Shown here one piece after another: positions 1 through 46,082 of a stretch of 64,000 nucleotides of DNA. The translations under genes and the position numbers were made by a program. The notes beneath the pieces are model-generated. The model was not told the DNA's origin. It searched no databases and saw nothing but the letters and a program-made list of their open reading frames with translations. The stretch comes from Candidatus Poribacteria bacterium (lineage in GTDB: Bacteria > Poribacteria > WGA-4E > WGA-3G): assembly GCA_965208635.1 (NCBI GenBank), contig OZ242349.1, forward strand, positions 4,925,696 through 4,989,695. Direction: 5' to 3'. Position 1 is the stretch's first letter, and each line of letters opens with the position of its first letter.

Positions 1-40
1 ACTGGCTTGTTCCGTTGGCATATCGTTAAAAGAAGACTCC

Positions 41-865
41 TTACTTGAAAAATGGAAAGAGGGTGGGGATATTGTCTGCGGTGAGTGCGGAACCGTACTC
101 GCATCCTTCAAATGCCTCAGCATACTTGATTTGTGCTCCGGCTTCTTCGCCATAGAGTGCTATTAGCACATCTCGATGCTTTTCGGCAACATCCTGGAAA
201 CGATTTAACAAGCGTTCAGCAAGCCACGCACGCCGTTCCGATGCCCCAATAGGGACGGAGTCTAATGAACCGCCGTTGTAAGGAAGCCATTCGTAAAACT
301 GCGATACATGACAGTGGAGCATATCAATCTTCTGTTCAACGACAGCATCAATGCCTACAACGACATCTGGCGTGAACGGGTTGGGCTTCATGAAACCGTC
401 GCTCAAATAGGTAATAACGGGATTTTTATTCAAATGTGGTGTAAGCGCACAGATATTCGGCACGGTAACCATGTATGCCGCGTCCTGAACCAAGATCGAC
501 GTATACCGGTGGTCAGGATGATAATCGTTGGGTCGGTGGGTCATGATTAAATCTGGACGGAATTCACGAATGGCGCGAATAATCTTATATCGATTTTCTA
601 ACGTCGGCATAAGTTCACCATCGTGATTGTCCAATAATTCATATTCAATACCGACGACTTCAGCGGCGGCTTGCGCTTCTTTATATCGCCGCTGCGCCAA
701 AGGAGCACCACCCATCTCGTGATGCCCTGCATCACCGTTCGTAACTGAGACAAATTTAACGCGATGTCCCTGTTGCGTATACAAGGCAGCGACGCCGCCT
801 GCTTTTATATCACAGTCATCGGGATGCGCCCCGAAAACCAAGACATTTATCTGTTTTTTTGACAT
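41..865 (-). CDS. PIG-L/LmbE family N-acetylglucosaminyl deacetylase
   Basis: N-terminal VFGAHPDDCDI motif (the HPDD zinc-binding signature of LmbE/PIG-L); ATG start at 863-865; 274 aa. Confidence 0.65.
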   Translation of the reverse strand: MSKKQINVLVFGAHPDDCDIKAGGVAALYTQQGHRVKFVSVTNGDAGHHEMGGAPLAQRRYKEAQAAAEVVGIEYELLDNHDGELMPTLENRYKIIRAIREFRPDLIMTHRPNDYHPDHRYTSILVQDAAYMVTVPNICALTPHLNKNPVITYLSDGFMKPNPFTPDVVVGIDAVVEQKIDMLHCHVSQFYEWLPYNGGSLDSVPIGASERRAWLAERLLNRFQDVAEKHRDVLIALYGEEAGAQIKYAEAFEGCEYGSALTADNIPTLFPFFK

Positions 866-3574: not shown

Positions 3575-6500
3575 ATGTTAAATAAAAACACATCCCTAAA
3601 ATCTGGTATCCGAGATAACCTCCTACGTGAAACAGTCCACGATTTTCTACAACAAGAAATTAAGAACGGTTCCGCACTCTCCATCGTCTCCGCCTACTTC
3701 ACCATTTATGCCTACGAAAAGATGCAACACTCCCTGGATAAAATAGAGGAACTCCGTTTTCTTTTTGGGGACCCTGATTTTGTCAAACGTATGGATCCGA
3801 ATAACACAGATACAAAAGCGTTTGATATGACGGATACAGGTCTACAACTCAACCAGCAACTCCGACAGAAACCGATTGCCAAAGCGTGTGCCGAATGGAT
3901 AAACGAGAAGGTAGAAATCCGTACGACCCGCGAATCTAATCTGATACACGGGAAAATGTACCACATCACCAATAACGGCGTTGACAAAGCAATTCTGGGT
4001 AGCTCCAACTTTACGGTGCGCGGACTCGGACTCAGTTCAAATAACAGCAACATTGAACTGAATCTTGAAGTGGATAGCGACCGAGACCGAACCGACCTCA
4101 AGGCGTGGTTTGATGAACTCTGGAATAACGATCAACTCGTTGAAGATGTGAAAAATAAAGTCCTCGCAAAACTGAAGCAGATAGGGCAAGATCACCCACC
4201 AGAACTCGTCTATTACAAAACCCTATACGAACTTTTCCGTGAAGAAATTGAGACCCGACAGACAAACGAACAGACCCTTGAGGATATACATCTATACGAC
4301 ACAAAAATTTGGGGCAAGTTATACGATTTTCAAAAAGAGGGCGCGAAAAGTGTTATTGCTCGGCTGCTGCGACACAACGGTTGTATTTTGGCGGATAGCG
4401 TCGGATTAGGAAAAACATACACTGCACTCGCCGTCATCAAGTTTTTTGAATTGCGAAACGAACGTGTCCTTGTTCTCTGCCCGAAAAAACTCCGCGAAAA
4501 TTGGGCACGCTACCCGGCACATAACTCACAAGCATCCAATGAGTTCCTCGATGATAAGTTCGGATACACCTTACTCTCGCACACCGACCTATCCAGATAC
4601 AGTGGTGATTCTGGCGGTGTCAATCTATCAGATTTCAATTGGCAGAATTTTGACCTGATTGTTATTGACGAATCCCACAACTTCCGAAATGACACCAAAC
4701 CCCGTGAGGACAAAGATGGCAGCTTCCGTCATAGCCGTTATTCCCGCCTATTAGAGGAGGTCATCAAAGAAGGCACAAAAACCAAAGTGTTGATGCTCTC
4801 CGCGACGCCCGTGAATACTTCACTCACTGACCTCCGCAATCAGATATATCTCATGACAGAAAAACGTGAGGATGTCTTTAGAAACAGTTTGGGGGTTAGC
4901 AATATCCGCACTTTAATACGACAGGCGCAAAAAGCCTTCAAGACGTGGGAAGAGAACACCACCAGAGATGGCACAAGAGATAAAACAGAATTATTTAATA
5001 CGTTAGGGGTAGAATTTTTTCAACTCCTCGGCGGCGTTTCTATTGCGCGTTCCCGAAGGCATATCATAAAATACTATGCCGAAGAAATAAAAAAAATTGG
5101 TGAATTCCCTACACAACTCGATCCAGTCAATTGCCATCCACCTACCGATCTGTCAGGCGAACTTTCATATAAAGTGTTGGCGGATCAGATTGGTGATTTC
5201 GAGTTGTCCATCTATAGACCCTCCAGTTACGTTGTAGATGAAACAGCAAAACAGCGGTTAGCAGATGAAAAACAGAAATTCCGTTTCAATCAGGAGGATC
5301 GTGAGAAATTCCTTATCGGTATGATGCAGACCAATTTCCTCAAACGGCTGGAAAGTTCTGCTTACTCCCTTTCCAAAACGCTTGAACGCACCATCAACAA
5401 ACACGATGAAATGCTGGAGAAGATTGACCGCTTCCAGAAAAACCAAAATATAGCAGACGCAGGCGCCGATGTCCTTCCCGATGATGATGAAGACGATGAG
5501 GAATTTTTAATCAATCGTGCCAGAAATCCCTACCATCTAAAAGAATTGGATTGCACCCGCTGGAAACAGGACATCAACCAAGATAAACAGACATTAACCG
5601 CTGTGTTGGAAAAAGTGAAATCCATCACATCAGAACGGGATGGAAAACTGAAAGAGATTAAAAAACACATCCGAGATAAGGTGCTAAATGCAACAAAAGA
5701 TAAGGACGGAAACCCCAATCGCAAACTGCTCATCTTTACCACCTTCAAGGATACGGCAGAATATCTCTATGATCACTTGTCTGAACTCATATCGGAATTA
5801 GGGCTGAATATGGCACTCGTTTCTGGAGATATGACGCGAACGACCTGCGGAGAAAATAAATTCAACGATATTCTTACGAACTTTGCCCCCCGCGCAAGAG
5901 GACGTTCTGAGGACATCAGCGACAACATAGACCTGATGATTGCGACAGACTGTATCTCAGAAGGGCAAAACCTTCAGGACTGCGATACCGTTCTAAACTA
6001 CGATATACACTGGAATCCCGTCCGTATTATTCAACGGTTCGGGCGGATTGATAGGATCGGTAGCAATAATGTCTCAGTCAAGATGATTAACTATTGGCCC
6101 ACAGAAGATATGGAGGTCTATCTCCGTCTACGAAATCGCGTTGAATCCCGAATGGCACTCGCCGATGCCACCGCAAGTGGTGATGACGACCCGTTGAATG
6201 AATGGGCTTACGAACAGGCACAGATGGAACTCAACTTCCGGGACAAGCAGTTGGAGCGGCTCCGCGAAGAGGTACTCGATCTGGATGACCTCTCTGACGG
6301 TGTAGTAATGAGCGACTTTACATTAGATTATTTCTTTGCGCAACTCCTGAAGTATCTCGAAAGAAACAGAGCAAAACTTGAGGCAACATCAGACGGTGCT
6401 TATGCCGTTACCAATAACGAAAACAATCCCTCGGAAAACGGTGTCATCTTCTTTCTCCAACAGACCAACGCCAGCACAAATAAACAGGAAAAAACCGCCA

Positions 6501-6853
6501 GTCCCATCCACCCTTACTACGCCGTTTACATCCGAGACAGTGGGGATATCCGTTACGGGTGTATCAATGCGAAACAGGTGTTGGATCTATTTGAGACATC
6601 TGCCGTTGGGAAAGAGGACGCAATAGATGATTTATGTCTCTGGTTTGACCAAGAGACGGAATACGGCGATAACATGACACATTACAACAAACTTTTAGAC
6701 GCCGTCATTTCGCATATCACACGGTCACATACGAAGACACAAAGCCAAATTTTGAAGAGTGGGAGTCCTCGCGACGCAAAACTGACACCCGCATCCAAAG
6801 CCCCTAAAGACACTGGCGATTTCAAGTTGGTGACATGGCTGATTATCACATGA
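3575..6853 (+). CDS. Fused PLD-family nuclease domain (single HKD motif) plus SNF2-family DEAH-box helicase
   Basis: HGKMYHITNNGVDKAILGSSNFT (HxK...GSxN PLD signature) near residue 125. Helicase motifs: I DSVGLGKT, II DESH, III LSATP, C-terminal helicase domain with QRFGRIDRIG (motif VI). 1092 aa, ATG start. Confidence 0.8.
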   Translation: MLNKNTSLKSGIRDNLLRETVHDFLQQEIKNGSALSIVSAYFTIYAYEKMQHSLDKIEELRFLFGDPDFVKRMDPNNTDTKAFDMTDTGLQLNQQLRQKPIAKACAEWINEKVEIRTTRESNLIHGKMYHITNNGVDKAILGSSNFTVRGLGLSSNNSNIELNLEVDSDRDRTDLKAWFDELWNNDQLVEDVKNKVLAKLKQIGQDHPPELVYYKTLYELFREEIETRQTNEQTLEDIHLYDTKIWGKLYDFQKEGAKSVIARLLRHNGCILADSVGLGKTYTALAVIKFFELRNERVLVLCPKKLRENWARYPAHNSQASNEFLDDKFGYTLLSHTDLSRYSGDSGGVNLSDFNWQNFDLIVIDESHNFRNDTKPREDKDGSFRHSRYSRLLEEVIKEGTKTKVLMLSATPVNTSLTDLRNQIYLMTEKREDVFRNSLGVSNIRTLIRQAQKAFKTWEENTTRDGTRDKTELFNTLGVEFFQLLGGVSIARSRRHIIKYYAEEIKKIGEFPTQLDPVNCHPPTDLSGELSYKVLADQIGDFELSIYRPSSYVVDETAKQRLADEKQKFRFNQEDREKFLIGMMQTNFLKRLESSAYSLSKTLERTINKHDEMLEKIDRFQKNQNIADAGADVLPDDDEDDEEFLINRARNPYHLKELDCTRWKQDINQDKQTLTAVLEKVKSITSERDGKLKEIKKHIRDKVLNATKDKDGNPNRKLLIFTTFKDTAEYLYDHLSELISELGLNMALVSGDMTRTTCGENKFNDILTNFAPRARGRSEDISDNIDLMIATDCISEGQNLQDCDTVLNYDIHWNPVRIIQRFGRIDRIGSNNVSVKMINYWPTEDMEVYLRLRNRVESRMALADATASGDDDPLNEWAYEQAQMELNFRDKQLERLREEVLDLDDLSDGVVMSDFTLDYFFAQLLKYLERNRAKLEATSDGAYAVTNNENNPSENGVIFFLQQTNASTNKQEKTASPIHPYYAVYIRDSGDIRYGCINAKQVLDLFETSAVGKEDAIDDLCLWFDQETEYGDNMTHYNKLLDAVISHITRSHTKTQSQILKSGSPRDAKLTPASKAPKDTGDFKLVTWLIIT

Positions 6854-6864
6854 TTAACCCGTCC

Positions 6865-6891
6865 CCGGTAGGTGCGGTTTTTAACCGCACT
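6865..6891. repeat. REP-like hairpin, copy 2 (GGTGCGGTT ttt AACCGCAC), 12 nt after the helicase stop
   Basis: Read directly; it may also act as a transcript 3' stem-loop, but there is no T-tract. Confidence 0.5.
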
Positions 6892-6928
6892 ATAGGTGTC
6901 AATTTAAGAAAAATTGCATCATGGCATC

Positions 6929-7169
6929 GTAGGTTGGGTTGAACGGGGAATACCAGAGTCCAGTGAATTGAAAGAAACAGTACGCCTTCTCTATACACCT
7001 TCCATTTCAGAGATATGGAGTGAAACCCAACGTCTTTGCGGTTCCCGAAACGCTGCGGGTATGAAGTTGGGTTTCACTCTGTTCTTGGGTATATCCGAGG
7101 CTGTGTTGGATTTCAGGGATATTTGGAACATCGGCATCTGCCTTCTAAGTTCCGTTCAACCCAACCTAC
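6929..7169. mobile_element. MITE-like element (~241 bp) with terminal inverted repeats GTAGGTTGGGTTGAACG / CGTTCAACCCAACCTAC and an internal inverted pair GTGAAACCCAACG / GTTGGGTTTCAC; copy 1 of 2
   Basis: Perfect 16-17 bp terminal inverted repeats; a homologous copy sits at 14726-14957 with shared internal blocks. It lies between the helicase and methyltransferase genes and has no coding potential (ORF 6914..7177 is spurious). Confidence 0.55.
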
Positions 7170-7261
7170 AGTACTAAATTGACACCTATGGTGCAGAAAA
7201 TAATAACATCGGGCGGATAAAGCCCTCCAAAAAGAGGAGTCTGTTATAGGAACACAAAATT

Positions 7262-10200
7262 ATGAACAAAGAAGCAATCAAAGCCGCACTATCCGCAATA
7301 CCGACCGGTGACTTTTTAGAAAAGTCAAAAGACCTGCTCGGCACAATAGGCTACCGCAGTGAACTCACCCTTGAACTTTCCGGCACCGTCCACGACTTTT
7401 TTGACGAATTTCCACCACTCAACCCGAACACCAAAACCGAACAGGAATTCCGAAAACACGCTGAATCCGTGCAACTCGTGTTCCAATTCACAAGCGACGA
7501 AATCGCTGATGATCCACAGGGAACACTTTTTGAATCCGCTTCCTTCGACAAAGGAAACATAAAAAGTTTCCTGTTCTGTGCAGTCGAGCTAAAAGACAAC
7601 AACTATTCCCGCACCAAATACGCCGAGTTCACACGAGAAATCAACAAACGTCTGTTCGCACCCACTGTGATTTTATTTCGCGCCGGTAATCATCTGACAG
7701 TTGCATTTGCCGATCGCCGCCCAGACAAAACCGACGAGGACCGCGATGTGCTCGGACAGGTTACCCTCATCAAAGACATCCGTCTCCACAACCCACACCG
7801 CGCACATTTGGACATCCTCTCTGAACTCTCACTTGAAGCGTGCGTCAAGTGGATAGATGAAAAACAAAAACCGAAAAACTTCGACGGTCTACTGGGGGCA
7901 TGGCTCGCCAAACTGGACACCGAAGAACTCAACAAACAGTTCTATCGAAAGCTGTTCGCGTGGTACGAATGGGCAAGAAAAGAAGCAACGTTCCCGACAG
8001 ACGAAAACCGAATCATAGAACCGGAGGAGCATGTAATACGCCTCATCACACGTCTACTCTTCATCTGGTTTATTAAAGAAAAAGGGTTGGTGGCAGATGC
8101 GTTATTCAACAAATCGCAAATCCAAGACCTACTGGCAGAAGACGATTTTGATACCGGAGATTCCTACTATCGCGCCGTGCTACAGAACCTCTTTTTCGCC
8201 ACATTGAACACCGAAATAGACAAACGTAAGTTTAGCACCGTTGGCTACGCCACAAATCGTGATTTCTCGCGTTACCGCTATAAAGCTCAGATGCCTGACC
8301 CCGATAAACTCTTAGAACTGTTTGACCAAACCCCCTTCATCAACGGTGGATTGTTCGATTGTCTGGATAGTTGGGAAGCGACGGGTCAAGAGAGTTACCG
8401 AATCGACTGCTTTTCTGATAATCAGTACCATAAGTTGTCCATCCCCAACCGTCTCTTTTTTCATATAGAGCAAGGATTGATTCCGTTACTTGAGCATTAC
8501 AAATTCACCGTCGAGGAGAACACACCGATAGAGCAAGAGGTGGCATTGGACCCAGAACTACTCGGCAGAGTCTTTGAAAACCTACTTGCTGCCTACAACC
8601 CGGAAACCGGTGCGACGGTGCGAAAACAGACCGGATCCTACTACACCCCACGTGCTATCGTCGATTATATGGTGGAAGAAGCATTGGTCGCCACGTTATC
8701 CCAAAAATGCGATCCAACCGATGGCGACGCGCAACTCTGGAACGAACGGCTACGCTATCTTCTCGACTATGCCCAAGCCTTTGATGATGCCAACGAATGG
8801 TTCGATGATGCTGAAAAAGATGCCGTTGTCCGAGTAATTTCCGAACTCAAGATATTGGATCCCGCAGTGGGTTCCGGTGCATTTCCTATGGGGATGTTGC
8901 ACAAATTAACCCTCGCATTACGCCGACTTGACCCAGACAACACCCGCTGGGAAAAGTTACAGAAGGAACGCGCGCTCCAACGAGCAGAAATAGCGTTTGA
9001 TACACAAGACGACCCAACGCGGCGTGAAGAACTCATCGAAATCGACGAGACTTTCAAACGCTATCGAGACTCAGACTTCGGACGAAAGTTGTATCTCATC
9101 CAAAATAGTATTTTCGGCATAGACATCCAACCCGTGGCGTGCCAGATCGCCAAACTCCGCTTTTTCATATCCCTTGCCATTGAGCAGGAACCCGAGCAGG
9201 ATACACAGAACTTCGGCATCAAACCGTTGCCAAACTTGGAGACGCGCTTTATCGCGGCAAACACACTGATAGGACTCACAGCACAACGGATGCTGACAAG
9301 TAACACCGCGCGAGATTTGGAACGCGAACTGGGTGACAATCGCGAGCGGCATTTTCATGCGACCACCCGTCAACGCAAACGTGAATATCAGCGAAAGGAC
9401 GAGCAACTGCGATCCGAATTGGCAGCGGAGCTAAAAAGCATGGGCACCCCAGCAGATGATGCCGAAAAAATTGCAAAATGGGATCCGTATGACCAGAATG
9501 CCACCGCCGATTGGTTTGATCCTGAATGGATGTTCGGAGTCATAGATGGATTTGATGTGGTGATTGGCAATCCACCCTACATTAGTCATGATAAAATCCC
9601 AAAACAACTTAAAGCCCAAATCAAGAATCATTACCAATCATACGAGCCATTTGCAGACGTATACTGTTATTTTATTGAAAAAACCTTAGAACTACAGAGT
9701 AAGAGGAGCATTCTTAGTTTCATTACCTCAAATTCGTATTTAAGAGCAGAATATGGAGCACCAACCCGCCGCCTATTGCTAAGTAAAAACATACTACTTA
9801 GAATGTTAAATATTGAGGACTCACAGGTCTTCGAGAGTGCAATTGTTAACGTCGCGATAATTGTGTCTCGTACACCGACCAATTCCACTGATGATTCCTG
9901 CCTTGTTGTTAATTCCCCATTTTCAGGTAATAGTTTCGCCGATTTTGTGAAAATCAATGGCTTTAACTATCCTCAATCATACTTTAACTCAAAGTCATGG
10001 AATCTCGCAGAACCGCAGCTGATTGAACTTCAAAAGAAACTGGAATTATCAGGAAAAACTCTTAAAGAGTTTCAGACGAAAATTAGACTTGGTATTGCTA
10101 CTGGTAGCAACGAAGCTTTTCTCATAAATGAAGATCAAAAACGGGAATTTTATGAGAAAAATCCTGTCAATGCTGAAATCATAAAACCTATTTTGAGGGG

Positions 10201-10813
10201 ACGGGACATTTCACGCTACAGTTACAACCTACCCGGGCAGTATATTCTACTCACCAAAAATGGAGTTAATGTAGAAAGAGATTACCCTGATATACATGAA
10301 CATCTAAAGTCGTTCGGGGATAAGTTCAGAAATCGTGGAGCACAGGGACAACATTGGACTAATTTAAGAGCTTGTTCATTCTATGACGACTTCAAAAAGG
10401 AAAAAATCGTGTGGATCGAATTGTCAGATTTGGGACGATTCGCACTTTGTAATGAGGAAATCTATCTACTCAACTCGGCGTACTTTTTATTACCACCTTT
10501 GGGTATAGACTCAAAATTCCTTCTTGGCATCCTAAATTCAAGCACAATTCGCTTTTACCTGAATCTTGTCGCAGAAACAAGCGGAATGGGAACAAGCCGT
10601 TGGATCAACAATTATGTGAAAGAATTCCCAATACCAATAGTTGCTTATGAACAACAAACTGAAATCATTGAACACGTCGATCAACTTCTTGCGATCAAGC
10701 GCGCTGACTCGGATGCGGACACTTCCAATCTTGAAAATGAGATTGACAAACTGGTATACGCCTTATACGACCTAACCGACGATGAGATTGCGATTGTGGA
10801 GGGAAAAGAATGA
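7262..10813 (+). CDS. Gamma-class N6-adenine DNA methyltransferase, large Type IIG / PglX-like architecture with a possible N-terminal PD-(D/E)xK region and a C-terminal target-recognition region
   Basis: Motif I LDPAVGSGAFPMGML near residue 531, then motif IV VIGNPPYISHD near residue 769. The I-then-IV order defines the gamma class. About 530 aa precede motif I, with a possible D-x12-ELK (SFDKG...AVELK). A 414-aa C-terminal region is markedly AT-rich. 1183 aa. Confidence 0.8.
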   Translation: MNKEAIKAALSAIPTGDFLEKSKDLLGTIGYRSELTLELSGTVHDFFDEFPPLNPNTKTEQEFRKHAESVQLVFQFTSDEIADDPQGTLFESASFDKGNIKSFLFCAVELKDNNYSRTKYAEFTREINKRLFAPTVILFRAGNHLTVAFADRRPDKTDEDRDVLGQVTLIKDIRLHNPHRAHLDILSELSLEACVKWIDEKQKPKNFDGLLGAWLAKLDTEELNKQFYRKLFAWYEWARKEATFPTDENRIIEPEEHVIRLITRLLFIWFIKEKGLVADALFNKSQIQDLLAEDDFDTGDSYYRAVLQNLFFATLNTEIDKRKFSTVGYATNRDFSRYRYKAQMPDPDKLLELFDQTPFINGGLFDCLDSWEATGQESYRIDCFSDNQYHKLSIPNRLFFHIEQGLIPLLEHYKFTVEENTPIEQEVALDPELLGRVFENLLAAYNPETGATVRKQTGSYYTPRAIVDYMVEEALVATLSQKCDPTDGDAQLWNERLRYLLDYAQAFDDANEWFDDAEKDAVVRVISELKILDPAVGSGAFPMGMLHKLTLALRRLDPDNTRWEKLQKERALQRAEIAFDTQDDPTRREELIEIDETFKRYRDSDFGRKLYLIQNSIFGIDIQPVACQIAKLRFFISLAIEQEPEQDTQNFGIKPLPNLETRFIAANTLIGLTAQRMLTSNTARDLERELGDNRERHFHATTRQRKREYQRKDEQLRSELAAELKSMGTPADDAEKIAKWDPYDQNATADWFDPEWMFGVIDGFDVVIGNPPYISHDKIPKQLKAQIKNHYQSYEPFADVYCYFIEKTLELQSKRSILSFITSNSYLRAEYGAPTRRLLLSKNILLRMLNIEDSQVFESAIVNVAIIVSRTPTNSTDDSCLVVNSPFSGNSFADFVKINGFNYPQSYFNSKSWNLAEPQLIELQKKLELSGKTLKEFQTKIRLGIATGSNEAFLINEDQKREFYEKNPVNAEIIKPILRGRDISRYSYNLPGQYILLTKNGVNVERDYPDIHEHLKSFGDKFRNRGAQGQHWTNLRACSFYDDFKKEKIVWIELSDLGRFALCNEEIYLLNSAYFLLPPLGIDSKFLLGILNSSTIRFYLNLVAETSGMGTSRWINNYVKEFPIPIVAYEQQTEIIEHVDQLLAIKRADSDADTSNLENEIDKLVYALYDLTDDEIAIVEGKE

Positions 10814-11235
10814 ATACAGGACTAAAGATTTTCATTACCTATGCCCATAAAAATTCAGAAGCAAAGGACGAATTGATAACCAGCCTTGCCGTCCTGAAGC
10901 AAAACGGATTAATAGATGTCTGGCACGACAACGAAATTCTACCTGGAGACAAATGGCGAGATGAAATTTTCAACAACCTTGCTGATTCGGACATTCTACT
11001 CTACCTTACCTGTCGGTATAGTCTTGCCTCTGAAAATTGCAATAAAGAATTAACTGCTGCGTTAAATCCAAATATAAGAGTGATTCCGATTATCCTTGAA
11101 CATTGCGATTGGCTAAATCACCAACTTAGCGATTTTCAAGCTCTACCGGATAAAGGTAAACCTATTAACGAGTGGCAACCTGAGAGCAAAGGGTGGTTAA
11201 ATGTACTGCCATCGGAAATTTGGACCACTCTCTAA
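10810..11235 (+). CDS. TIR-domain protein, start overlapping the methyltransferase stop (ATGA); 3' end replaced by IS-derived sequence
   Basis: IFITYAHKNSEAKDEL (TIR box 1, F-I/V-S/T-Y/H...D). ...DSDILLYLTCRYSLASENCNKELTAAL matches the S-x-W/N-C-x-x-E-L motif that carries the catalytic Glu of TIR NADases. The last 10 codons (VLPSEIWTTL*) come from the IS left end starting at 11202, so the native C-terminus is lost. Confidence 0.6.
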   Translation: MNTGLKIFITYAHKNSEAKDELITSLAVLKQNGLIDVWHDNEILPGDKWRDEIFNNLADSDILLYLTCRYSLASENCNKELTAALNPNIRVIPIILEHCDWLNHQLSDFQALPDKGKPINEWQPESKGWLNVLPSEIWTTL

Positions 11236-11360
11236 ACCAAGATTGTGATACAATAACAATCTATTTGAAAGGAGCATTCCGATGGCGAAACGCAGAAGAT
11301 TTACCCCCGAATTTAAAGCAGAAGTTGTGCTGGAGGCACTTCGCGGTGAAACTTCCCAAG
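11202..11360 (+). mobile_element. Partial (left-end, 159 bp) copy of the same IS3-family element in inverted orientation relative to the full copy; contains IRL and the first 26 codons of orfA
   Basis: Perfect reverse-complement identity of 11202-11360 to 12363-12521. Confidence 0.7.
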
Positions 11361-12170
11361 AGGTGTCAGATACCCTAACGCCGAATGCAGGCGTTTGAGA
11401 TTATACACCTGTGTGATAAAATGACCGATGCTTTGTCGAGCCTCGGTAATATCTTGATAATCATTGAGGTGGACTTCTTCTTCCTTGAGCGTTCGGATCA
11501 ATCTTTCAGCGTATCCATTCTCCCAAGGACACCCGCGGCGAGCTACCGAAATCTCAACACCGTATGCTTGGAGTGTTGCGATATACGCCTTTGAAAGATA
11601 CTGCACGCCTTGATCGGAATGATGAATCTCCGGAATCCTGTCGTGTAAAGCTTGCTCTAAGGGTTTCAAAGTCAGAGTTTGCGTCAAGTCTTGACTGAGG
11701 TTCCATCCTCGAATCATACGTGTGAAGACATCCATGAGCAGCGCGACATAGATGAAGCGTCTGTTGAGGCGGACGTAGGTGATATCGCCGACCCAGACTT
11801 GATCCTGTCGGGAGATCTCAAGCGTCTGTATTCTATTGACCCACGGGTGTGAACCTTCAAGGGACCTCGTGGTTTGACAGACCCGTTTCACCGAGACCGA
11901 GAGGTTATCTTCTTTCATCAACCGAGCGACGCGTCGATACCCAACAGGGTGTCCTTGATTCACCAACAGTTTGGTGATACGTCGATACCCGTAGGTGGGA
12001 TACCGGGCAGCTAACTGCTGTATGTCTGATCGCAGGACTTCTTCAGACGGGTCGCTTTTGGGGTGATAATAGAGCGTGCTCTTGTTGAAACCCAGCACCT
12101 CGCAAATCAGTCGAACCGAATACCTCGTCCGCAACTCCTCAACGATGCGTCGCTGTTGAGACGGGGTCAA
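11313..12170 (-). CDS. IS3-family transposase OrfB (DDE integrase domain); the reading frame runs about 48 nt past the inferred IS end into the inverted partial copy
   Basis: WVGDITYV...HSDQGVQY...NGYAE catalytic-triad context; C-terminal LHSALGYLTP. Confidence 0.75.
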   Translation of the reverse strand: MTPSQQRRIVEELRTRYSVRLICEVLGFNKSTLYYHPKSDPSEEVLRSDIQQLAARYPTYGYRRITKLLVNQGHPVGYRRVARLMKEDNLSVSVKRVCQTTRSLEGSHPWVNRIQTLEISRQDQVWVGDITYVRLNRRFIYVALLMDVFTRMIRGWNLSQDLTQTLTLKPLEQALHDRIPEIHHSDQGVQYLSKAYIATLQAYGVEISVARRGCPWENGYAERLIRTLKEEEVHLNDYQDITEARQSIGHFITQVYNLKRLHSALGYLTPLGKFHREVPPAQLLL

Positions 12171-12521
12171 TCCAACAATGTCGATGCTTTTTTTTGAATC
12201 TCCATCGCCAGGGTCAACCGTCCAACGAGTTGCTCAAGTTGAGCCACCCGTTCTACGGACTCGCTCGACTGCTTATCCGTAGCGTCAAAGAGCGTCGCTA
12301 TATTTTCAACGACTTGCTGCTTCCACTTTGAGACTTGGTCTGCACTTAGATTATGGTGCCGACACAATTCCGCTTGGGAAGTTTCACCGCGAAGTGCCTC
12401 CAGCACAACTTCTGCTTTAAATTCGGGGGTAAATCTTCTGCGTTTCGCCATCGGAATGCTCCTTTCAAATAGATTGTTATTGTATCACAATCTTGGTTTA
12501 GAGAGTGGTCCAAATTTCCGA
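11364..12521 (-). mobile_element. IS3-family insertion sequence (orfA plus orfB with an A8G -1 frameshift site), about 1.16 kb; left terminus TGTACTGCCATCGG... at 12521
   Basis: OrfA is an HTH/leucine-zipper protein (MAKRRRFTPEFKAEVV...). OrfB is a DDE transposase ending with the ...HSALGYLTP motif typical of IS3 OrfB. Slippery AAAAAAAAG lies at the orfA/orfB overlap (+ strand 12186-12196 TTTTTTTT). The right boundary is inferred from where the inverted duplicate ends and is uncertain by a few nt. Confidence 0.75.
12167..12451 (-). CDS. IS3-family transposase OrfA (HTH DNA-binding)
   Basis: 94 aa, MAKRRRFTPEFKAEVVLEAL... typical IS3 OrfA; overlaps orfB at the A8G slippery site. Confidence 0.8.
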   Translation of the reverse strand: MAKRRRFTPEFKAEVVLEALRGETSQAELCRHHNLSADQVSKWKQQVVENIATLFDATDKQSSESVERVAQLEQLVGRLTLAMEIQKKASTLLD

Positions 12522-12938
12522 TGGCAGTACACGGATTGATCGTTGTTGTCAAGTGAAAAACCGCCAAGTCGGGTGACAAGACGGTTTTCTTGACAATCCG
12601 TATACTTTGATGTTATCAAAGCATCAGCGGCGGATGCGTCGCGGATCGCTCACCTTGAGCAGCTCGTTGGGTGTCTAACAGTCGCCTTAGACATTGAAAA
12701 AAAAGCCGCGAAGTGGTTGAACTAACGGCATCAAAGAAACGAGAAATGGTGGAAAAAGTGCACTTAGTAAGTGGCTTACTTCTTTTTAAACTCTCATACT
12801 ATCCTTGATAAACTTGGCAAACATATCTCTACTCCGATAGTTATATTTATAGCACGCTTCAGCGAGATATAGAGGCGTGTATCCTGTTGAGTAGTGGTGG
12901 TGTGAACCATACCATGCCCGTTTGACGAAAGACCTATC

Positions 12939-12980
12939 TAAAAACCGCGAAACCTCCTATCGGTCTCGCGGTTTTTTATT
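12939..12980. terminator. Hairpin AAAACCGCGA-loop-TCGCGGTTTTTT (intrinsic-terminator-like, possibly bidirectional) in a 0.9 kb ORF-free region
   Basis: 10-bp stem including a GC core, followed by a T6 tract and preceded by an A-tract; no intact gene upstream. Confidence 0.3.
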
Positions 12981-13447
12981 GCCTACAAACAGCCAAAGTG
13001 TTAGAATGCATAAAAAGAGCTAAAGTAGAAATAACGTGAAACCAAAATTAACCATCCCCCAATCTACTAACTGCGAAATGTTATATTAGATTTAACCAAT
13101 CCCAAAACGACTTATTGCGAAAGATTATATCAAATCTCCTCGAAATCCGCAAAACCGTGTTATAGCACAAAAAAGCGTCTTCATTCGGCCTCCACAAGGT
13201 TTTCTTGAACAAAAACAATACACCGTCATTGATATTCCCGGATCGCTCAAAGAACCCATATTAGACCACCTGCAAAAACAACACGGCATCTCAACGCGAG
13301 ACGTCTACAACGATCTCCATGGATTTATTAGAGACCAGAGCAGCCACCAGAAAACCGCTATAGAAATTTATCAAGCCGAAATGGAGTTGATCGAAAATAC
13401 TTTGAAAACTTGATACACTCAATACCAAACAGAACGGAGGCATAAAC

Positions 13448-14251
13448 ATGAAGACCGAAGTTGTCCAGGATCCTAACGAAAACGCCATCCAACGTTTTAC
13501 CAAACTCATTATGGAAAGACCAAGTTTTGCCACGCCCTATAACTATAGAGGCATCGCGTATGGCAATATCGGCGAAATTGACCGCGCCATTGAAGACTTT
13601 AACACGGCAATTAGACGCAAGGACAACTATGCCGAAGCCTATAGCAACCGTGGCAGCGCATACCGTATCAAAGGGGATTACGATCGCGCCATCACAGATT
13701 GTAACACAGCGATAAAATTGGATCCTGATTTGCCAGAGGCATATAACAACCGTGGGATCGTTTATAAACTCAAGGGTGAGACAGATCGCGCCATTGAAGA
13801 CTATAACACAGCCATAACGCTCGATCCGAACTTTGCTTATGGCTATTACAATCGCGGTATTGTCTACCACGAAAGAGACGAGTTTGATCATGCCATCAAA
13901 GACTACACCAAAGCAATAGAACTGAGGCCAAATCTTGTCCATCCTTACAACCATCGTGGTAACGCTTATTCCCAACAAGGGAAATATAAACTTGCTATCA
14001 AGGACTATAACGAGGCGATACAACGCAAGCCGGATTTAGCAAAGCCATACTACAATCGCGGTATGGTGTTTGTACGCTTGCAAGAATGGGAAAAAGCCAA
14101 AGAAAATCTTACGACTGCCAGAGACAAGCAGGAAAATATTATCCCTGAACAGTTTCGCAAAGAATACGAAAACGTTGCCGATTTTGAGCAGAAATATGAG
14201 ATTAAACTACCGGAAGACATTGCCGCACTGCTAACTCCCTCGCAGGCATAG
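13448..14251 (+). CDS. TPR-repeat protein (about seven regular 34-aa repeats)
   Basis: Repeating AYNNRGIAY..G..D.AI.D.N.AI.L.P pattern; GGAGG RBS 6 nt upstream of the ATG. Confidence 0.7.
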   Translation: MKTEVVQDPNENAIQRFTKLIMERPSFATPYNYRGIAYGNIGEIDRAIEDFNTAIRRKDNYAEAYSNRGSAYRIKGDYDRAITDCNTAIKLDPDLPEAYNNRGIVYKLKGETDRAIEDYNTAITLDPNFAYGYYNRGIVYHERDEFDHAIKDYTKAIELRPNLVHPYNHRGNAYSQQGKYKLAIKDYNEAIQRKPDLAKPYYNRGMVFVRLQEWEKAKENLTTARDKQENIIPEQFRKEYENVADFEQKYEIKLPEDIAALLTPSQA

Positions 14252-14725
14252 CAGTAAAGTGATGTATCGCCGGTTTGCAAAATGTTGCACTTTCCGCCAA
14301 ATTATTTTTTTCGCACAGAAAAATCGAATAAAAAAACGCGCCTAAACCCACACACGCATTGGATTCTCAGACAATTTTAGCAAGTTATCCAAAATACAAA
14401 AAAAGTTACCAAATCGTAACTTTTTAGCAAATGAGTTAAAAATAAATTAACGTATGTTATCCATAAAGACTCATTGAAAACCGAGTCTGAAGTTTCAGAG
14501 TAAGCATTTCAGAAATCGCCTATCAAAACCACTCGAAACCCAGTCAGGGTCTATATTCACAACCTTTTTAAAATCCACCCTTCTTTAAATTTTACTCTGA
14601 ATACTCTGAAACTCGCCACATTTTCTTATCCCTATGTCTGAGCCGTGTCTCTGGGATCGCGATCCTATTGACTGCTAACTACTGAATGCTTCTGAAGGGT
14701 GTGTAAATATTTTGTCAAAATCCTG

Positions 14726-44340: not shown

Positions 44341-45978
44341 TTATTTTTCGATATCTGTGTCAAGTTCCCTCGCCTTTTTGAAATCCGCCTTCGCTTCCCT
44401 TTTTTGCCCAAGCCACACTTTCACAAGTGCGCGATTGTAGTAGGCTCTGGCAAAATCAGGTTTGAGACCGACGGTTTTGTCGAAATCCTCAAGTGCTCCA
44501 CTATAGTCATCAAGAGCCGCCTTCGCGACACCGCGCGTGTGGTAGCCGTAAGGATGCTCCGCGTCAAGTTCGATAGCCGAATCACAATCAGTTATTCCTG
44601 CTTCGTATAGGCTTCGGGCATCTGCCATATTTCCTTTATCAAATTCAAAATCCGCCAAGCAAATCCTCGTATATCCACGAATGATGTAGGCGTATGCATC
44701 ATGCCGGTCATAACTGATAGCCTTATCAAAGTCTTCAATCGCGGCGTAATAGTACCGCTGTGCTTCCGTGGCATGTCCTTGGTTAGTTTCAGAGATGCCC
44801 AAGGCGACCTTTACCGCCCCACGCTCGGCGTATGAGGGAAACTTTGGGTAGATACCGATGGCTTTATCAAAGTCTTCAATCGCTGAACGATAGTACTGTT
44901 GCGATACCTCGGTATGTCCCTTGATAAATTCAGAGTGCCCAAGGAGGGTTCTCGCATAGCCGCGCTTGAAATACGCGGGAGTATTCTTGGGGGTAATGCT
45001 GATGGCTTTATCAAGATCCTGAATCGCTGAACGATAATATTGCTGTGCTACCTTTGGCGCATTTTTGTCAAATTGAGAGCGACCCAGGTGGGCTTTGGCA
45101 TATCCACGATTTTCATATCTCATGTCTATTCCTATGAATGTAGGATTTATCGTAAAAAAATTATCAATTGCCTCTATCGCACCAGCATAGTCAGCAGCAT
45201 AGAATCTCTCTGATGATTGTCCGAGGTAGAGATAGGCGCGTATTGTGTCCCTCTTCTGCCATTTCGCCAAAGGCTCAACTGCTCCCGACCGGTCGAGTAG
45301 TCCTTTGAGTACGTTTGACCCAACGGCATAACCGATAGCACCGCTACCAGCAACAGTAATACCGACGACTTCGCCTTTGGTATTCAGCACAGGACCGCCA
45401 CTGGTACCCCCCGGACTGTTGGGTGTTACACGAAGCCACACACCGTTAAGCCGCTCCGGAAGGACGGTGTTCTCCATGATATTAAATCTATCAGCAGGAT
45501 AGCCTACATAGCTTACACCGAAAACAGTCTCACTACTGCTAACTGCGTCACTATTGCCGAGGACAAGCGGTCCGCCTTCTCCAGATATTTGTAGAATGAC
45601 GAGATCATTTTGGGTATCAAATGCCGTAACACCTCGAATTGTATAGTTCGCGTTATCGGTCCTCACGTGTAATGACGCAAGATCAGCATCTGCAAGACCA
45701 TGAATGTTAGTAACAACCTTGTCATTTGCCACGAAAAAGCCGCTACCGATCATCGTTGAATCTCCCTCTCCGTAAACCACACGTACTGTGGATTTTCTGA
45801 CTTTTTCTGCGTCTAAACCCTCAGCCACACCCAGAGGTATACCGGGACCTAATGGCGTGCCGCGTGGCATAGCGTACACTGGGTGCAATTCAATACGTTG
45901 GGGTGTCCGAGTACATGAAAGCATTAGCCCTAAAGCGAGAAAACTGAGTAAAAATTTAGTGATGCGGTTCATCAACAT
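44341..45978 (-). CDS. Lipoprotein with an N-terminal trypsin-like serine peptidase domain and C-terminal TPR repeats
   Basis: GSGFFVANDKVVTNIHG (His), DLVILQI (Asp), GGTSGGPVLN (Ser) catalytic triad context; about 6 TPR-like repeats (YAKAHLGRSQFDKN...). Lipobox LMLSC. I prefer the ATG at 45976-45978, after GGAAGGG. Confidence 0.65.
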   Translation of the reverse strand: MLMNRITKFLLSFLALGLMLSCTRTPQRIELHPVYAMPRGTPLGPGIPLGVAEGLDAEKVRKSTVRVVYGEGDSTMIGSGFFVANDKVVTNIHGLADADLASLHVRTDNANYTIRGVTAFDTQNDLVILQISGEGGPLVLGNSDAVSSSETVFGVSYVGYPADRFNIMENTVLPERLNGVWLRVTPNSPGGTSGGPVLNTKGEVVGITVAGSGAIGYAVGSNVLKGLLDRSGAVEPLAKWQKRDTIRAYLYLGQSSERFYAADYAGAIEAIDNFFTINPTFIGIDMRYENRGYAKAHLGRSQFDKNAPKVAQQYYRSAIQDLDKAISITPKNTPAYFKRGYARTLLGHSEFIKGHTEVSQQYYRSAIEDFDKAIGIYPKFPSYAERGAVKVALGISETNQGHATEAQRYYYAAIEDFDKAISYDRHDAYAYIIRGYTRICLADFEFDKGNMADARSLYEAGITDCDSAIELDAEHPYGYHTRGVAKAALDDYSGALEDFDKTVGLKPDFARAYYNRALVKVWLGQKREAKADFKKARELDTDIEK

Positions 45979-46082
45979 GTTCCCTTCCATAGTTGAAGTT
46001 TCAATTGCATATTCAAATGATACTGACTGTTTTCAATATTAGTTTATAATTTGGTCAGTCTTCTTCAAAAAGATGTGAAGCC

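What the first reader, a model, noticed from the sequence alone, without database searches (positions are those of the whole stretch)
10810..11235. TIR gene translationally coupled to the methyltransferase and 3'-truncated by IS insertion
The TIR start ATG overlaps the methyltransferase stop (ATGA). From nt 11202 on, the reading frame is IS left-end sequence, which supplies the last 10 codons and the stop. The native C-terminus is therefore lost, along with any C-terminal domain. Either the system is inactivated in this genome, consistent with IS attack on a costly abortive-infection effector, or a standalone TIR of about 130 aa remains functional.
Basis: seen in the sequence. Interest (0 to 1): 0.65.

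Follow-up and report, generated by a model that had tools for sequence, protein, structure and literature searches.

The report
IS-truncated remnant of TIR-TPR defence gene
This 141-codon ORF is the broken front end of a much longer TIR-plus-TPR-repeat gene that follows a DNA methyltransferase in sponge-symbiont (Poribacteria) genomes: an insertion sequence sits at the break and the rest of the gene is deleted, so it is an ordinary decayed defence gene that happens to expose an uncharacterised gene family.

Summary
The TIR ORF (10810-11235) starts in an ATGA overlap with the methyltransferase stop. From 11202 on it reads into the left end of a 1240-bp IS3-family element, which supplies VLPSEIWTTL and the stop. 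An independent TARA metagenome scaffold carries the same junction.

Intact orthologs in Candidatus Poribacteria genomes are 568-673 aa: TIR, a ~30-aa linker, 11-15 hypervariable TPRs and a conserved tail. At least three quarters of the protein is therefore missing. The break also removes about 17 of the 23 residues of the last TIR helix (alpha-E, 125-147 in a pLDDT-86 model). A functional stand-alone TIR is unlikely.

This is not a simple insertion. The IS has no target-site duplication here, although 3 of 4 other copies have one, and the gene's 3' part is not behind the IS. The downstream TPR ORF (13448-14251) belongs to an older, separately decayed FRG-TPR gene. In this genome the IS itself is rearranged: positions 1-159 are joined to an inverted copy of positions 1-1173.

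The helicase and methyltransferase genes are intact. A related genome carries an independent TAG stop at Trp129. Verdict: ordinary gene decay in a dynamic defence island, with moderate interest in the intact family.

The parts
3575..6853 (+). PLD(HKD)-SNF2 helicase gene, 1092 aa, intact; first gene of the conserved helicase / methyltransferase / TIR-TPR array
   Evidence: Pfam PLDc_2, SNF2-rel_dom, ResIII and Helicase_C. PADLOC 'HKD+Snf2' C3a139 E=2.5e-109. Orthologs of the same length and order in L093, and in L004.
7262..10813 (+). Eco57I/TaqI_C-type (type IIG / PglX-like) N6-adenine DNA methyltransferase, 1183 aa, intact; its stop overlaps the TIR start
   Evidence: Pfam Eco57I 1e-34 and TaqI_C 1e-17. 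PADLOC REase_MTase_IIG 1e-107, covering residues ~600-1182 only. NCBIfam PglX 100 bits against a cut-off of 500.
10798..10813 (+). GGAGG Shine-Dalgarno (10798-10802), 7-nt spacer, ATGA stop/start overlap (10810-10813)
   Evidence: Read directly. Same arrangement in 11 of 82 related loci.
10810..11201 (+). Native part of the TIR gene: codons 1-130 plus two bases of codon 131; retains invariant Glu80 (NCNKEL) but only the first ~6 residues of helix alpha-E
   Evidence: TIR_2 7e-17. 88-93% identity to the TIR domains of intact 568-673-aa orthologs. Alpha-E at 125-147 in the ortholog model.
11202..11235 (+). IS-derived end of the ORF: third base of codon 131, VLPSEIWTTL, TAA
   Evidence: IS left end defined by canonical copies. 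Same fusion protein in TARA scaffold L001.
11202..11360 (+). IS3-family element, copy A remnant: positions 1-159 (IRL plus the first 26 codons of orfA) in + orientation
   Evidence: Identical to canonical copies over 1-159. Joined to the inverted copy through a 2-nt AG microhomology at 11359-11360.
11359..12531 (-). IS3-family element, inverted copy: positions 1173 to 1. orfA is 12451-12167. orfB is 12170-11313, and its last codons are read from the other arm. The native right end (1174-1240, including IRR) is missing.
   Evidence: 100% identical to canonical IS copies L005, L008 and L010 over 1173 bp. Canonical orfB is 279 aa, against 285 aa here. Pfam HTH_Tnp_1, HTH_21, rve.
12590..12810 (+). 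Internal fragment of a different, related IS3-family element (end of orfA and start of orfB)
   Evidence: Translation ...IAHLEQLVGCLTVALDIEKKAAKWLN*. 77-83% nt identity to other IS copies in L006, L033 and L011. Boundaries are approximate.
13096..13413 (+). 5'-truncated remnant of an FRG-domain head (no start codon) that ends in a stop
   Evidence: 50-64% aa identity to FRG-TPR genes in L075, L051, L072 and L023. FRG PF08867 1e-13 in the intact L023 homolog.
13448..14251 (+). 267-aa TPR ORF with the family tail; 3' part of the decayed FRG-TPR gene, not of the TIR gene
   Evidence: Directly follows the FRG remnant in the +1 frame. Tail matches L023 FRG-TPR (47% over 257 aa). An orthologous stand-alone 267-aa ORF is in L093 (79% nt identity from window 13258). 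Identical ORF in TARA L010/L091.

Best explanation
The ORF is the 5' remnant of a TIR-TPR gene. In Candidatus Poribacteria that gene is the third gene of a conserved array: PLD-SNF2 helicase, type IIG/PglX-like methyltransferase, TIR-TPR. The TIR-TPR gene starts in a 4-nt overlap with the methyltransferase stop.

Shown: an IS3-family element (1240 bp, 3-bp target duplications elsewhere) abuts codon 131. Everything after that point is absent: most of TIR helix alpha-E, the linker, some 9-15 TPR repeats and the conserved C-terminal tail. In total 340-540 aa are missing.

Inferred: the IS has no target duplication here and the 3' part is not behind it, so the loss is an IS-associated deletion of several kb and not a simple insertion. 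The deletion could have arisen by recombination between two IS copies or as an adjacent deletion. In this genome a second IS copy then appears to have inserted in inverted orientation 48 bp downstream, and the centre of the resulting near-palindrome was deleted. That left IS 1-159 joined to inverted IS 1173-1.

Inferred: the 141-aa product (130 native residues plus a proline-containing 10-residue IS-encoded tail) most probably cannot fold or assemble as a TIR and has no sensor part, so the TIR-TPR module is dead. The upstream helicase and methyltransferase genes are intact and may still work as a restriction-modification-like pair.

Inferred for the intact protein: the hypervariable TPR array acts as the recognition or regulatory part, and the TIR domain (invariant Glu80) acts as an NAD+-consuming effector.
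For: - Junction and IS end.
- Independent assembly of the same fusion ORF.
- Intact orthologs: ORFs at 80 reference loci are 226-1212 aa, mostly 430-1000. The closest MTase-linked ones are 568-673 aa with TIR, linker, 11-15 TPRs and the tail.
- Conserved NTGA overlap and SD in 11 of 82 loci.
- Homology to L002, L004, L023 and L093 ends at 11194-11205 and does not resume for the TIR-TPR gene.
- No TSD at this copy (AAA/GAG), against GAC, CAA and GCT at three others.
- Downstream TPR ORF assigned to an FRG-TPR remnant.
- Alpha-E at 125-147 with pLDDT 97-98 over residues 121-140 in a model of mean pLDDT 86.2.
- TIR fold confirmed: 135-160 aligned columns to solved TIR domains, TMt ~0.7 for isolated domains.
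- The ThsB-type profile aligns to residues 7-147 in the intact ortholog but only 6-132 here.
- Canonical IS against rearranged IS.
Against: - Loss of function is inferred from sequence and a predicted structure only. Glu80 and all strands up to beta-E are retained, and TIR-only proteins exist in other systems.
- In the BcTpr analogue, an NADase head without its TPR tail still depleted NAD+ (preprint 10.1101/2023.05.26.542521).
- The ORF keeps its SD and its operon position, so it is probably still translated.
- The order of events (deletion, second insertion, palindrome collapse) is a reconstruction.
- The rearranged IS form is seen only in the window's own assembly. The TARA sample has a canonical IS at this site, and the chimeric orfB was not found elsewhere.
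- No experiment links the intact TIR-TPR, or the three-gene array, to phage defence.
Confidence: 0.8

Rival explanations
1. The truncated protein still works as a stand-alone TIR (NADase or signal producer), freed from its TPR regulator.
For: Glu80 and the conserved core motifs are retained. The SD and operon position are retained. The fusion ORF is identical in two independent samples. The BcTpr head alone depletes NAD+. A second lineage separates the TIR from the rest at Trp129 by a TAG followed directly by an in-frame ATG.
Against: About 17 of the 23 residues of alpha-E are gone and are replaced by VLPSEIWTTL, which contains a proline. The TIR-type profile and solved TIR domains extend ~15 residues beyond the break. 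No intact family member is TIR-only. Identity between the two samples reflects recent common ancestry (99.8% nt identity), not demonstrated selection.
Confidence: 0.1
2. Simple IS insertion: the rest of the TIR gene survives behind the IS, and the TPR ORF at 13448-14251 is that rest.
For: The TPR ORF ends with the same kind of tail as TIR-TPR proteins and aligns with their last ~260 aa at 41-46%. This was my own working idea.
Against: An FRG-head remnant lies directly 5' of the TPR ORF. Its tail matches FRG-TPR better. The same stand-alone 267-aa ORF exists in L093, where the TIR-TPR gene is full length. There is no TSD. No linker or TPR1 sequence occurs anywhere in 12532-13447.
Confidence: 0.03
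3. Assembly artefact: the TIR/IS junction, or the inverted IS structure, is not real.
For: The element is a multi-copy repeat. The 159-nt perfect inverted arms with a 2-nt microhomology junction resemble chimeric-read artefacts. The rearranged form is not seen in the TARA sample.
Against: The TIR/IS junction was assembled independently. The window's right junction (IRL directly on CGGATTG) is a precise IS-end junction 48 bp away from the TARA one, which a misassembly would not be expected to create. The stated confidence applies only to the inner junction at 11359-11360. For the TIR/IS junction itself it is below 0.03.
Confidence: 0.2
4. The TIR-TPR family is not a defence module but a eukaryote-like repeat protein family used by the sponge symbiont to interfere with host TIR signalling. 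The truncation would then be loss of a host-interaction factor.
For: The family is expanded in sponge-associated Poribacteria and Latescibacterota: 155 relatives, with several per genome. Most copies are not next to a methyltransferase. TPR proteins are typical of such symbionts (my own knowledge, not checked here).
Against: There is conserved 4-nt coupling to an RM-like methyltransferase/helicase pair. Neighbours include Pycsar and FRG genes. Its sibling family carries an FRG head matching PADLOC candidate PDC-S15. No secretion signal was looked for or seen.
Confidence: 0.15

Closest known systems
IS-disrupted defence or restriction genes (pseudogenisation by IS3-family elements, with IS-mediated adjacent deletions)
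   Same: An IS3-family element (HTH_Tnp_1 orfA, rve orfB, TG...CA ends, A8G slippery run, 3-bp TSD elsewhere) sits exactly at the break of a defence-island gene. The ORF closes in IS sequence.
   Different: There is no TSD and no 3' remainder. The IS itself is a head-to-head composite (1-159 joined to inverted 1-1173) without a right end, so it can probably no longer transpose.
Bacterial TIR effectors fused to, or paired with, sensor or regulatory parts (SPARTA TIR-APAZ, Thoeris ThsB, SpbK, Cat1, TIR-STING)
   Same: TIR fold with the conserved Glu in the xCxxEL motif. The best structural matches are SPARTA TIR-APAZ and animal TIR domains. The best sequence matches are Cat1 and a PADLOC ThsB-type profile.
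   Different: The partner part is a long hypervariable TPR array on the same polypeptide, followed by a conserved ~25-aa tail. There is no ThsA, Argonaute, CRISPR or STING partner. All curated family scores are far below cut-off.
BcTir/BcTpr system of Bacillus cereus (preprint 10.1101/2023.05.26.542521)
   Same: An NAD+-cleaving N-terminal head is fused to a C-terminal TPR domain that controls its output. Truncation series show that the TPR part matters.
   Different: The BcTpr head is described as a glycosidase domain, not this TIR family. It works with a separate TIR protein, has 12 TPR helices rather than 11-15 repeats, and has no methyltransferase/helicase linkage. I found no sequence relationship.
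DISARM class 1 (DrmD + DrmMI) and BREX (PglX + BrxH) methyltransferase/helicase modules
   Same: An SNF2-type helicase with a PLD nuclease domain lies next to a large Eco57I-type adenine methyltransferase. There are weak profile matches to DrmD, DrmMI, PglX and BrxH.
   Different: No DrmA/DrmB, PglZ or BrxC lies nearby. All scores are far below curated cut-offs. A TIR-TPR gene is translationally coupled to the methyltransferase, which is not described for these systems in the papers I could search.
PDB 9m0n / 9umd, 'Tetratricopeptide repeat protein', 824 aa
   Same: A solved protein whose N-terminal ~95 residues match this TIR profile (E=1e-3) and which is named for its TPR repeats, so it has the same overall head-plus-TPR layout.
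   Different: Only a weak N-terminal match. I could not find the associated paper or compare the TPR and tail parts. This is a lead only.

Membership tests
TIR domain (Pfam TIR_2, PF13676) | Profile match above the curated threshold | tested here: met
   62.4 bits against a cut-off of 28, E=7e-17, residues 7-111 matched to profile positions 1-105 of 122.
TIR domain (Pfam TIR_2, PF13676) | Complete flavodoxin-like TIR fold including the terminal helix alpha-E | tested here: not met
   In the ortholog model alpha-E is 125-147 and solved TIR domains align over 135-160 columns. The window copy ends its native sequence at residue 130. The ThsB-type profile covers 7-147 in the intact ortholog and 6-132 here.
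TIR domain (Pfam TIR_2, PF13676) | Conserved glutamate of NAD+-cleaving TIRs (xCxxEL motif in alpha-C) | tested here: met
   E80 in NCNKEL is invariant in 34 sequences and nearly invariant in 93. It aligns with the E of CWDEL in Cat1. Its catalytic role is inferred, not assayed.
Thoeris (ThsB with ThsA) | ThsB-type TIR protein reaching the curated score, with a ThsA-type effector gene adjacent | tested here: not met
   NCBIfam ThcB4 scored 29 bits against a cut-off of 220. Neighbouring genes are the helicase, the methyltransferase, IS sequences, a TPR ORF and metabolic genes.
IS3 family insertion sequence | orfA (HTH) and orfB (DDE/rve) overlapping at a slippery A-run; imperfect IRs ending TG...CA; 3-bp TSD | tested here: met
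   Pfam HTH_Tnp_1 and rve. An A8G run at the orfA/orfB overlap. IRL and IRR both begin with TG and share a conserved core, so the element runs TG...CA. Length is 1240 bp, with TSDs GAC, CAA and GCT at three canonical copies. The window copy itself lacks IRR.
Simple IS insertion into the TIR gene | Target-site duplication flanking the IS and the gene's 3' part immediately beyond it | tested here: not met
   Flanks are AAA and GAG (TARA form), or AAA and CGG (window). No TIR-TPR sequence follows.
DISARM | DrmA and DrmB core genes plus DrmD/DrmMI at curated scores | tested here: not met
   DrmD 145 bits against a cut-off of 610. No DrmA/DrmB-like ORF lies within ~3.5 kb upstream or downstream of the array.
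BREX | PglZ and BrxC together with PglX | tested here: not met
   PglX model 100 bits against a cut-off of 500. No PglZ or BrxC neighbour.
Type IIG restriction-modification enzyme | Nuclease, methyltransferase and specificity domains in one polypeptide | tested here: inconclusive
   PADLOC IIG profiles match only residues ~600-1182, the methyltransferase and TaqI_C specificity part. The N-terminal ~430 residues have no assigned domain.
Poribacterial head-TPR-tail family (defined here) | N-terminal head (TIR or FRG), TPR array, C-terminal ...FE(Q/R)xxG(I/V)xLPxDIAAMLTP tail | tested here: not met
   The window TIR ORF has the head only. Intact members are described. The 13448-14251 ORF has the array and tail only.

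The most novel reading that the evidence does not exclude
The intact array (PLD-SNF2 helicase, type IIG/PglX-like methyltransferase, translationally coupled TIR-TPR) may be an uncharacterised three-gene defence system of sponge symbionts. In this reading a hypervariable TPR array senses phage factors and fires a TIR NADase as a second layer behind an RM-like module. The recurrent breaks at the TIR/alpha-E boundary (the IS here, TAG at Trp129 in L093) would then reflect selection to disarm an autoimmune effector while keeping the RM-like part.
Probability: 0.35. Interest if true: 0.6.

Novelty: new member of a known kind. Interest (0 to 1): 0.3.

Why it matters
As a single locus it matters little. 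It is a decayed defence gene next to a mobile element, which is common in defence islands.

Its value is as a pointer. Chasing the missing C-terminus showed that Poribacteria carry a large, unannotated family of head-TPR-tail proteins. The heads (TIR or FRG) are conserved, the TPR arrays are hypervariable, and a ~25-aa tail is conserved. One branch is tightly coupled to a methyltransferase/helicase pair. That architecture has the logic of an immune receptor without a STAND NTPase, and it could be tested directly by cloning an intact operon such as L023 or L022.

The locus also offers a natural example of a head-to-head IS pair that collapsed into an immobile remnant.

Tried and rejected
1. I first read the protein-database hits as showing a native length of ~210-227 aa. 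This is rejected. The list contained nothing longer than 229 aa (1.75 times the 131-aa query, so probably a length filter, which is my inference), while reference genomes encode 430-1200 aa.

2. I then took the TPR ORF at 13448-14251 for the displaced 3' end of the TIR gene (after). This is rejected by the FRG remnant directly upstream, the better match to FRG-TPR tails, and L093.

3. I first set the IS length at 1284 bp and saw an 'SNP' between the arms. Both were wrong. The IRR is at position 1240, 48 bp of flank follow in the TARA sample, and the 'SNP' is the recombination junction.

4. The first structure prediction, with 15 sequences, was too poor to use (pLDDT 57.7). It was repeated with 93 sequences.

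5. The PDB profile search with the TPR part included was swamped by designed TPR proteins. It was repeated with a TIR-only profile.

6. An Rfam scan of 11000-14500 found nothing. The promoter and terminator scan did not exceed the shuffled controls.

7. A look-up of the chimeric 285-aa orfB found no record, so there is no independent support for the rearranged IS.

8. Literature searches for Poribacteria TIR proteins, for PDB 9m0n, and for this helicase/methyltransferase/TIR array found nothing specific.

9. I considered a hotspot for frameshifts at VV(D/E)GIRK among the short homologs. I did not pursue it, because the sample is biased by length and includes 2-3x coverage long-read contigs.
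Full report
**1. Observation**

The ORF 10810-11235 (+, 141 aa) exists as described. Its ATG at 10810 overlaps the TGA at 10811-10813, which ends the 1183-aa methyltransferase ORF 7262-10813. A GGAGG lies 7 nt upstream of the ATG. The product is a TIR domain: Pfam TIR_2 at 62 bits against a cut-off of 28, E=7e-17. The best PADLOC match is a ThsB-type profile, of which only positions 3-134 of 319 are covered.

From 11202 the sequence is the left end of an IS3-family element. Five canonical copies elsewhere begin with the same TGTACTGCC.... Codon 131 takes its last base from the IS. The next ten codons (VLPSEIWTTL) and the stop are IS sequence.

The junction is not an artefact of one assembly. 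A TARA metagenome scaffold (L001, 99.85% identical over 6136 bp) encodes the identical 141-aa protein and breaks 55 bp inside the IS.

**2. What the gene was**

A scan of reference genomes placed the family in Candidatus Poribacteria and related sponge-associated lineages. It found 155 relatives, of which 80 loci were fetched. In those genomes, many of them complete chromosomes, the ORF starting at the TIR is 226-1212 aa and mostly 430-1000 aa. It consists of TIR, a ~30-aa linker, a TPR array, and in most cases a conserved tail ...FE(Q/R)xxG(I/V)xLPxDIAAMLTPPQA.

The closest copies (88-93% identical over the TIR domain) are 568-673 aa with 11-15 TPRs. In these the methyltransferase gene ends at the TIR start. 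An NTGA overlap with a long upstream ORF and the same GTGGAG(G) motif occurs in 11 of 82 loci. L004, L023 and L093 show the PLD-SNF2 helicase upstream of the methyltransferase as in the window.

Among these orthologs the TIR domains are 89-96% identical, while the last 260 residues are mostly 37-50% identical. The repeat array is therefore hypervariable.

The protein-database search had suggested lengths of 131-229 aa. That list had a hard upper limit at 1.75 times the query length. It consists of contig-end fragments, frameshifted copies (tails such as RRYPKSR are the -1 frame of DGIRKV) and truncated genes.

**3. Where the break falls in the fold**

A model of the ortholog P0003 built from 93 sequences has mean pLDDT 86.2 and pTM 0.70. 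It shows strands at 5-10, 35-39, 62-67 and 90-95, helices between them, and a long helix at 125-147 with pLDDT 97-98 over residues 121-140, followed by TPR helices.

Foldseek matches it to solved TIR domains (SPARTA TIR-APAZ, TRAM, Hydra TRR-2, SARM1, MyD88, MAL) over 135-160 columns, with target-normalised TM of about 0.7 for isolated domains. A TIR-only sequence profile aligns TLR2/15 TIR up to query residue 128, with more of the chain following. The ThsB-type profile reaches residue 147 in the intact L023 protein but only 132 in the window protein.

The native sequence therefore stops about six residues into alpha-E. The IS-encoded replacement contains a proline at its third position. Glu80 (NCNKEL, aligned with the CWDEL motif of Cat1) is invariant or nearly so in the family alignments and is retained.

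My inference is that the remnant is unlikely to fold or assemble as a working TIR, and it has lost its entire TPR part.

**4. How the gene was broken**

The canonical IS is 1240 bp. It has a 94-aa orfA, a 279-aa orfB, an A8G run at their overlap, imperfect inverted repeats that each begin with TG (so the element runs TG...CA), and 3-bp duplications (GAC, CAA, GCT) at three of four other copies.

In the TARA sample, scaffolds L001 and L010 overlap by 55 bp. They give the order: TIR remnant, canonical IS in + orientation, 48 bp, then sequence identical to window 12532-14610. The flanks there are AAA and GAG, so there is no duplication. No linker or TPR1 sequence follows in either assembly. The two flanks were therefore not neighbours before the IS arrived, which is the signature of an IS-associated deletion.

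In the window the element is further rearranged. IS positions 1-159 (+) are joined, through a 2-nt AG microhomology at 11359-11360, to an inverted copy of positions 1-1173. The IRL of that inverted copy abuts 12532 directly. IS positions 1174-1240 and the 48 bp are missing.

The simplest reconstruction is as follows. A second copy inserted in inverted orientation 48 bp downstream of the first. The centre of the resulting 2.5-kb near-palindrome was then deleted. This is inference. The inner junction is supported only by the window's assembly.

**5. The region behind the IS**

The region 12590-12810 is an internal fragment of a different IS3-type element. The region 13096-13413 is a start-less remnant of an FRG-domain head. 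It is 50-64% identical to FRG-TPR genes that accompany TIR-TPR genes in other loci. It ends in a stop and is followed 35 nt later, in the +1 frame, by the 267-aa TPR ORF 13448-14251.

The tail of that ORF matches the FRG-TPR gene of L023 (47% over 257 aa, with ARDKQE..FRKxYExVxDFEQKxEIKLPEDIAA nearly identical) better than it matches any TIR-TPR tail. In L093 the orthologous 267-aa ORF already stands alone downstream of a full-length TIR-TPR gene (79% nt identity from window 13258).

The TPR ORF is therefore the remnant of a neighbouring gene that decayed earlier, not the lost C-terminus of the TIR gene. Compared with the gene orders of L023 or L093, the window lacks roughly 4 kb. In L023 that stretch holds the TPR part of the gene, a Pycsar pair (PycTIR 3e-108, PycC 5e-101) and the front of the FRG-TPR gene. 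The actual ancestral content is unknown.

**6. A second independent break**

In L093 the 473-codon TIR-TPR gene carries an in-frame TAG at the invariant Trp129 codon (GGG TAG ATG, where orthologs read G-W-M), two codons from the IS junction in the window. In the high-quality reference set, about 5 of 80 copies are clearly cut short (under 300 aa and lacking the tail) and two more end inside the TPR array. I regard the coincidence of position as suggestive only.

**7. Mechanism and classification**

Shown: the domain content, the conserved gene order and overlap, the hypervariable array, the break point, and the absence of the 3' part.

Inferred: the intact protein works as a sensor/regulator (TPR) plus effector (TIR NADase) attached to an RM-like helicase/methyltransferase pair. 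In this genome that module is dead, while the helicase (1092 aa, the same length as in L093) and the methyltransferase (1183 aa, against 1200-1231 in orthologs) remain intact.

None of the three proteins reaches curated cut-offs for Thoeris, DISARM or BREX, and their defining partners are absent nearby. The closest functional analogue I could find in the literature is the BcTir/BcTpr system, in which a TPR tail tunes an N-terminal NADase head and the head alone still depletes NAD+. That result is the main reason not to exclude residual activity. A solved 824-aa 'tetratricopeptide repeat protein' (9m0n) with a weakly matching N-terminal TIR is a lead I could not follow.

**8. Verdict**

It needs correction on the mechanism (deletion, not simple insertion; a rearranged IS), on scope (only the TIR-TPR module is broken) and on the likelihood of a functional stand-alone TIR (low).

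As a locus it is ordinary gene decay. The intact head-TPR-tail family and its methyltransferase-coupled branch are the more interesting by-product.

Noticed in passing
window 11202-12531: The IS3-family element is not canonical. Positions 1-159 are joined head-to-head to an inverted copy of positions 1-1173 through a 2-nt microhomology. The right end (IRR) is missing, which gives 159-162-nt near-perfect inverted arms. A TARA sample has a canonical 1240-bp copy plus 48 extra bp at the same site.
   Followed up: yes
window 13096-14251: A decayed FRG-TPR gene: an FRG-head remnant without a start, a stop, then a 267-aa TPR ORF in the +1 frame with its own GGAGG and ATG. The same stand-alone ORF is conserved (79% nt) in L093 and identical in two other samples, so it may be expressed as a TPR-only protein.
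   Followed up: partly
window 12590-12810: An internal fragment of a second, related IS3-family element (end of orfA, start of orfB), 77-83% identical to copies in other Poribacteria loci. It shows repeated IS activity at this spot.
   Followed up: partly
L093 6385-6399 (equivalent to window ~11194-11199): An independent in-frame TAG at the invariant Trp129 codon of an otherwise full-length 473-codon TIR-TPR gene, directly followed by an in-frame ATG. This is two codons from the IS junction in the window.
   Followed up: partly
window 9583-10718 (methyltransferase, TaqI_C / specificity region): This stretch has no DNA-level match to the otherwise 82-89% identical loci L002 and L004, but it is conserved at 82-85% with L023 and L093. 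That suggests exchange of target-recognition domains between alleles.
   Followed up: no
window 6854-7261 against L093 1487-2294 and L004 5509-6393: A PDDEXK_3 gene sits between the helicase and the methyltransferase in L093 and L004. It is absent from the window and L002, where unrelated spacers of ~400 bp and ~100 bp respectively take its place.
   Followed up: no
L011-L090 (80 Poribacteria loci): A modular family: different heads (this TIR, FRG, another TIR type, or none), a variable number of TPRs, and a conserved ~25-aa C-terminal tail. TIR heads are 89-96% identical where the TPR arrays are 37-50% identical. Some members carry a further C-terminal domain ending ...NLFFLDSVKPIRIIEGK.
   Followed up: partly
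L023 7976-9607: A complete Pycsar pair (cNMP-binding PycTIR effector and PycC cyclase) lies between the TIR-TPR and FRG-TPR genes in the closest reference locus. This marks the neighbourhood as a defence island.
   Followed up: yes
output (protein database search): No hit was longer than 229 aa (1.75 times the 131-aa query), although genomes encode 430-1200-aa relatives. The list is enriched for broken copies and would mislead a length-based judgement.
   Followed up: yes
window 12940-12976: A 15-bp GC-rich inverted repeat followed by a T-run (terminator-like hairpin) in the patchwork spacer. There was no Rfam match anywhere in 11000-14500.
   Followed up: partly
L006 2228-4093: Another copy of the same IS is itself interrupted by a ~690-bp insertion after position 47.
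   Followed up: no
window 44341-45990 (-): A 549-aa Trypsin_2-TPR protein. A gene of the same length and domain content lies next to an IS copy in L007. It lacks the family tail.
   Followed up: no
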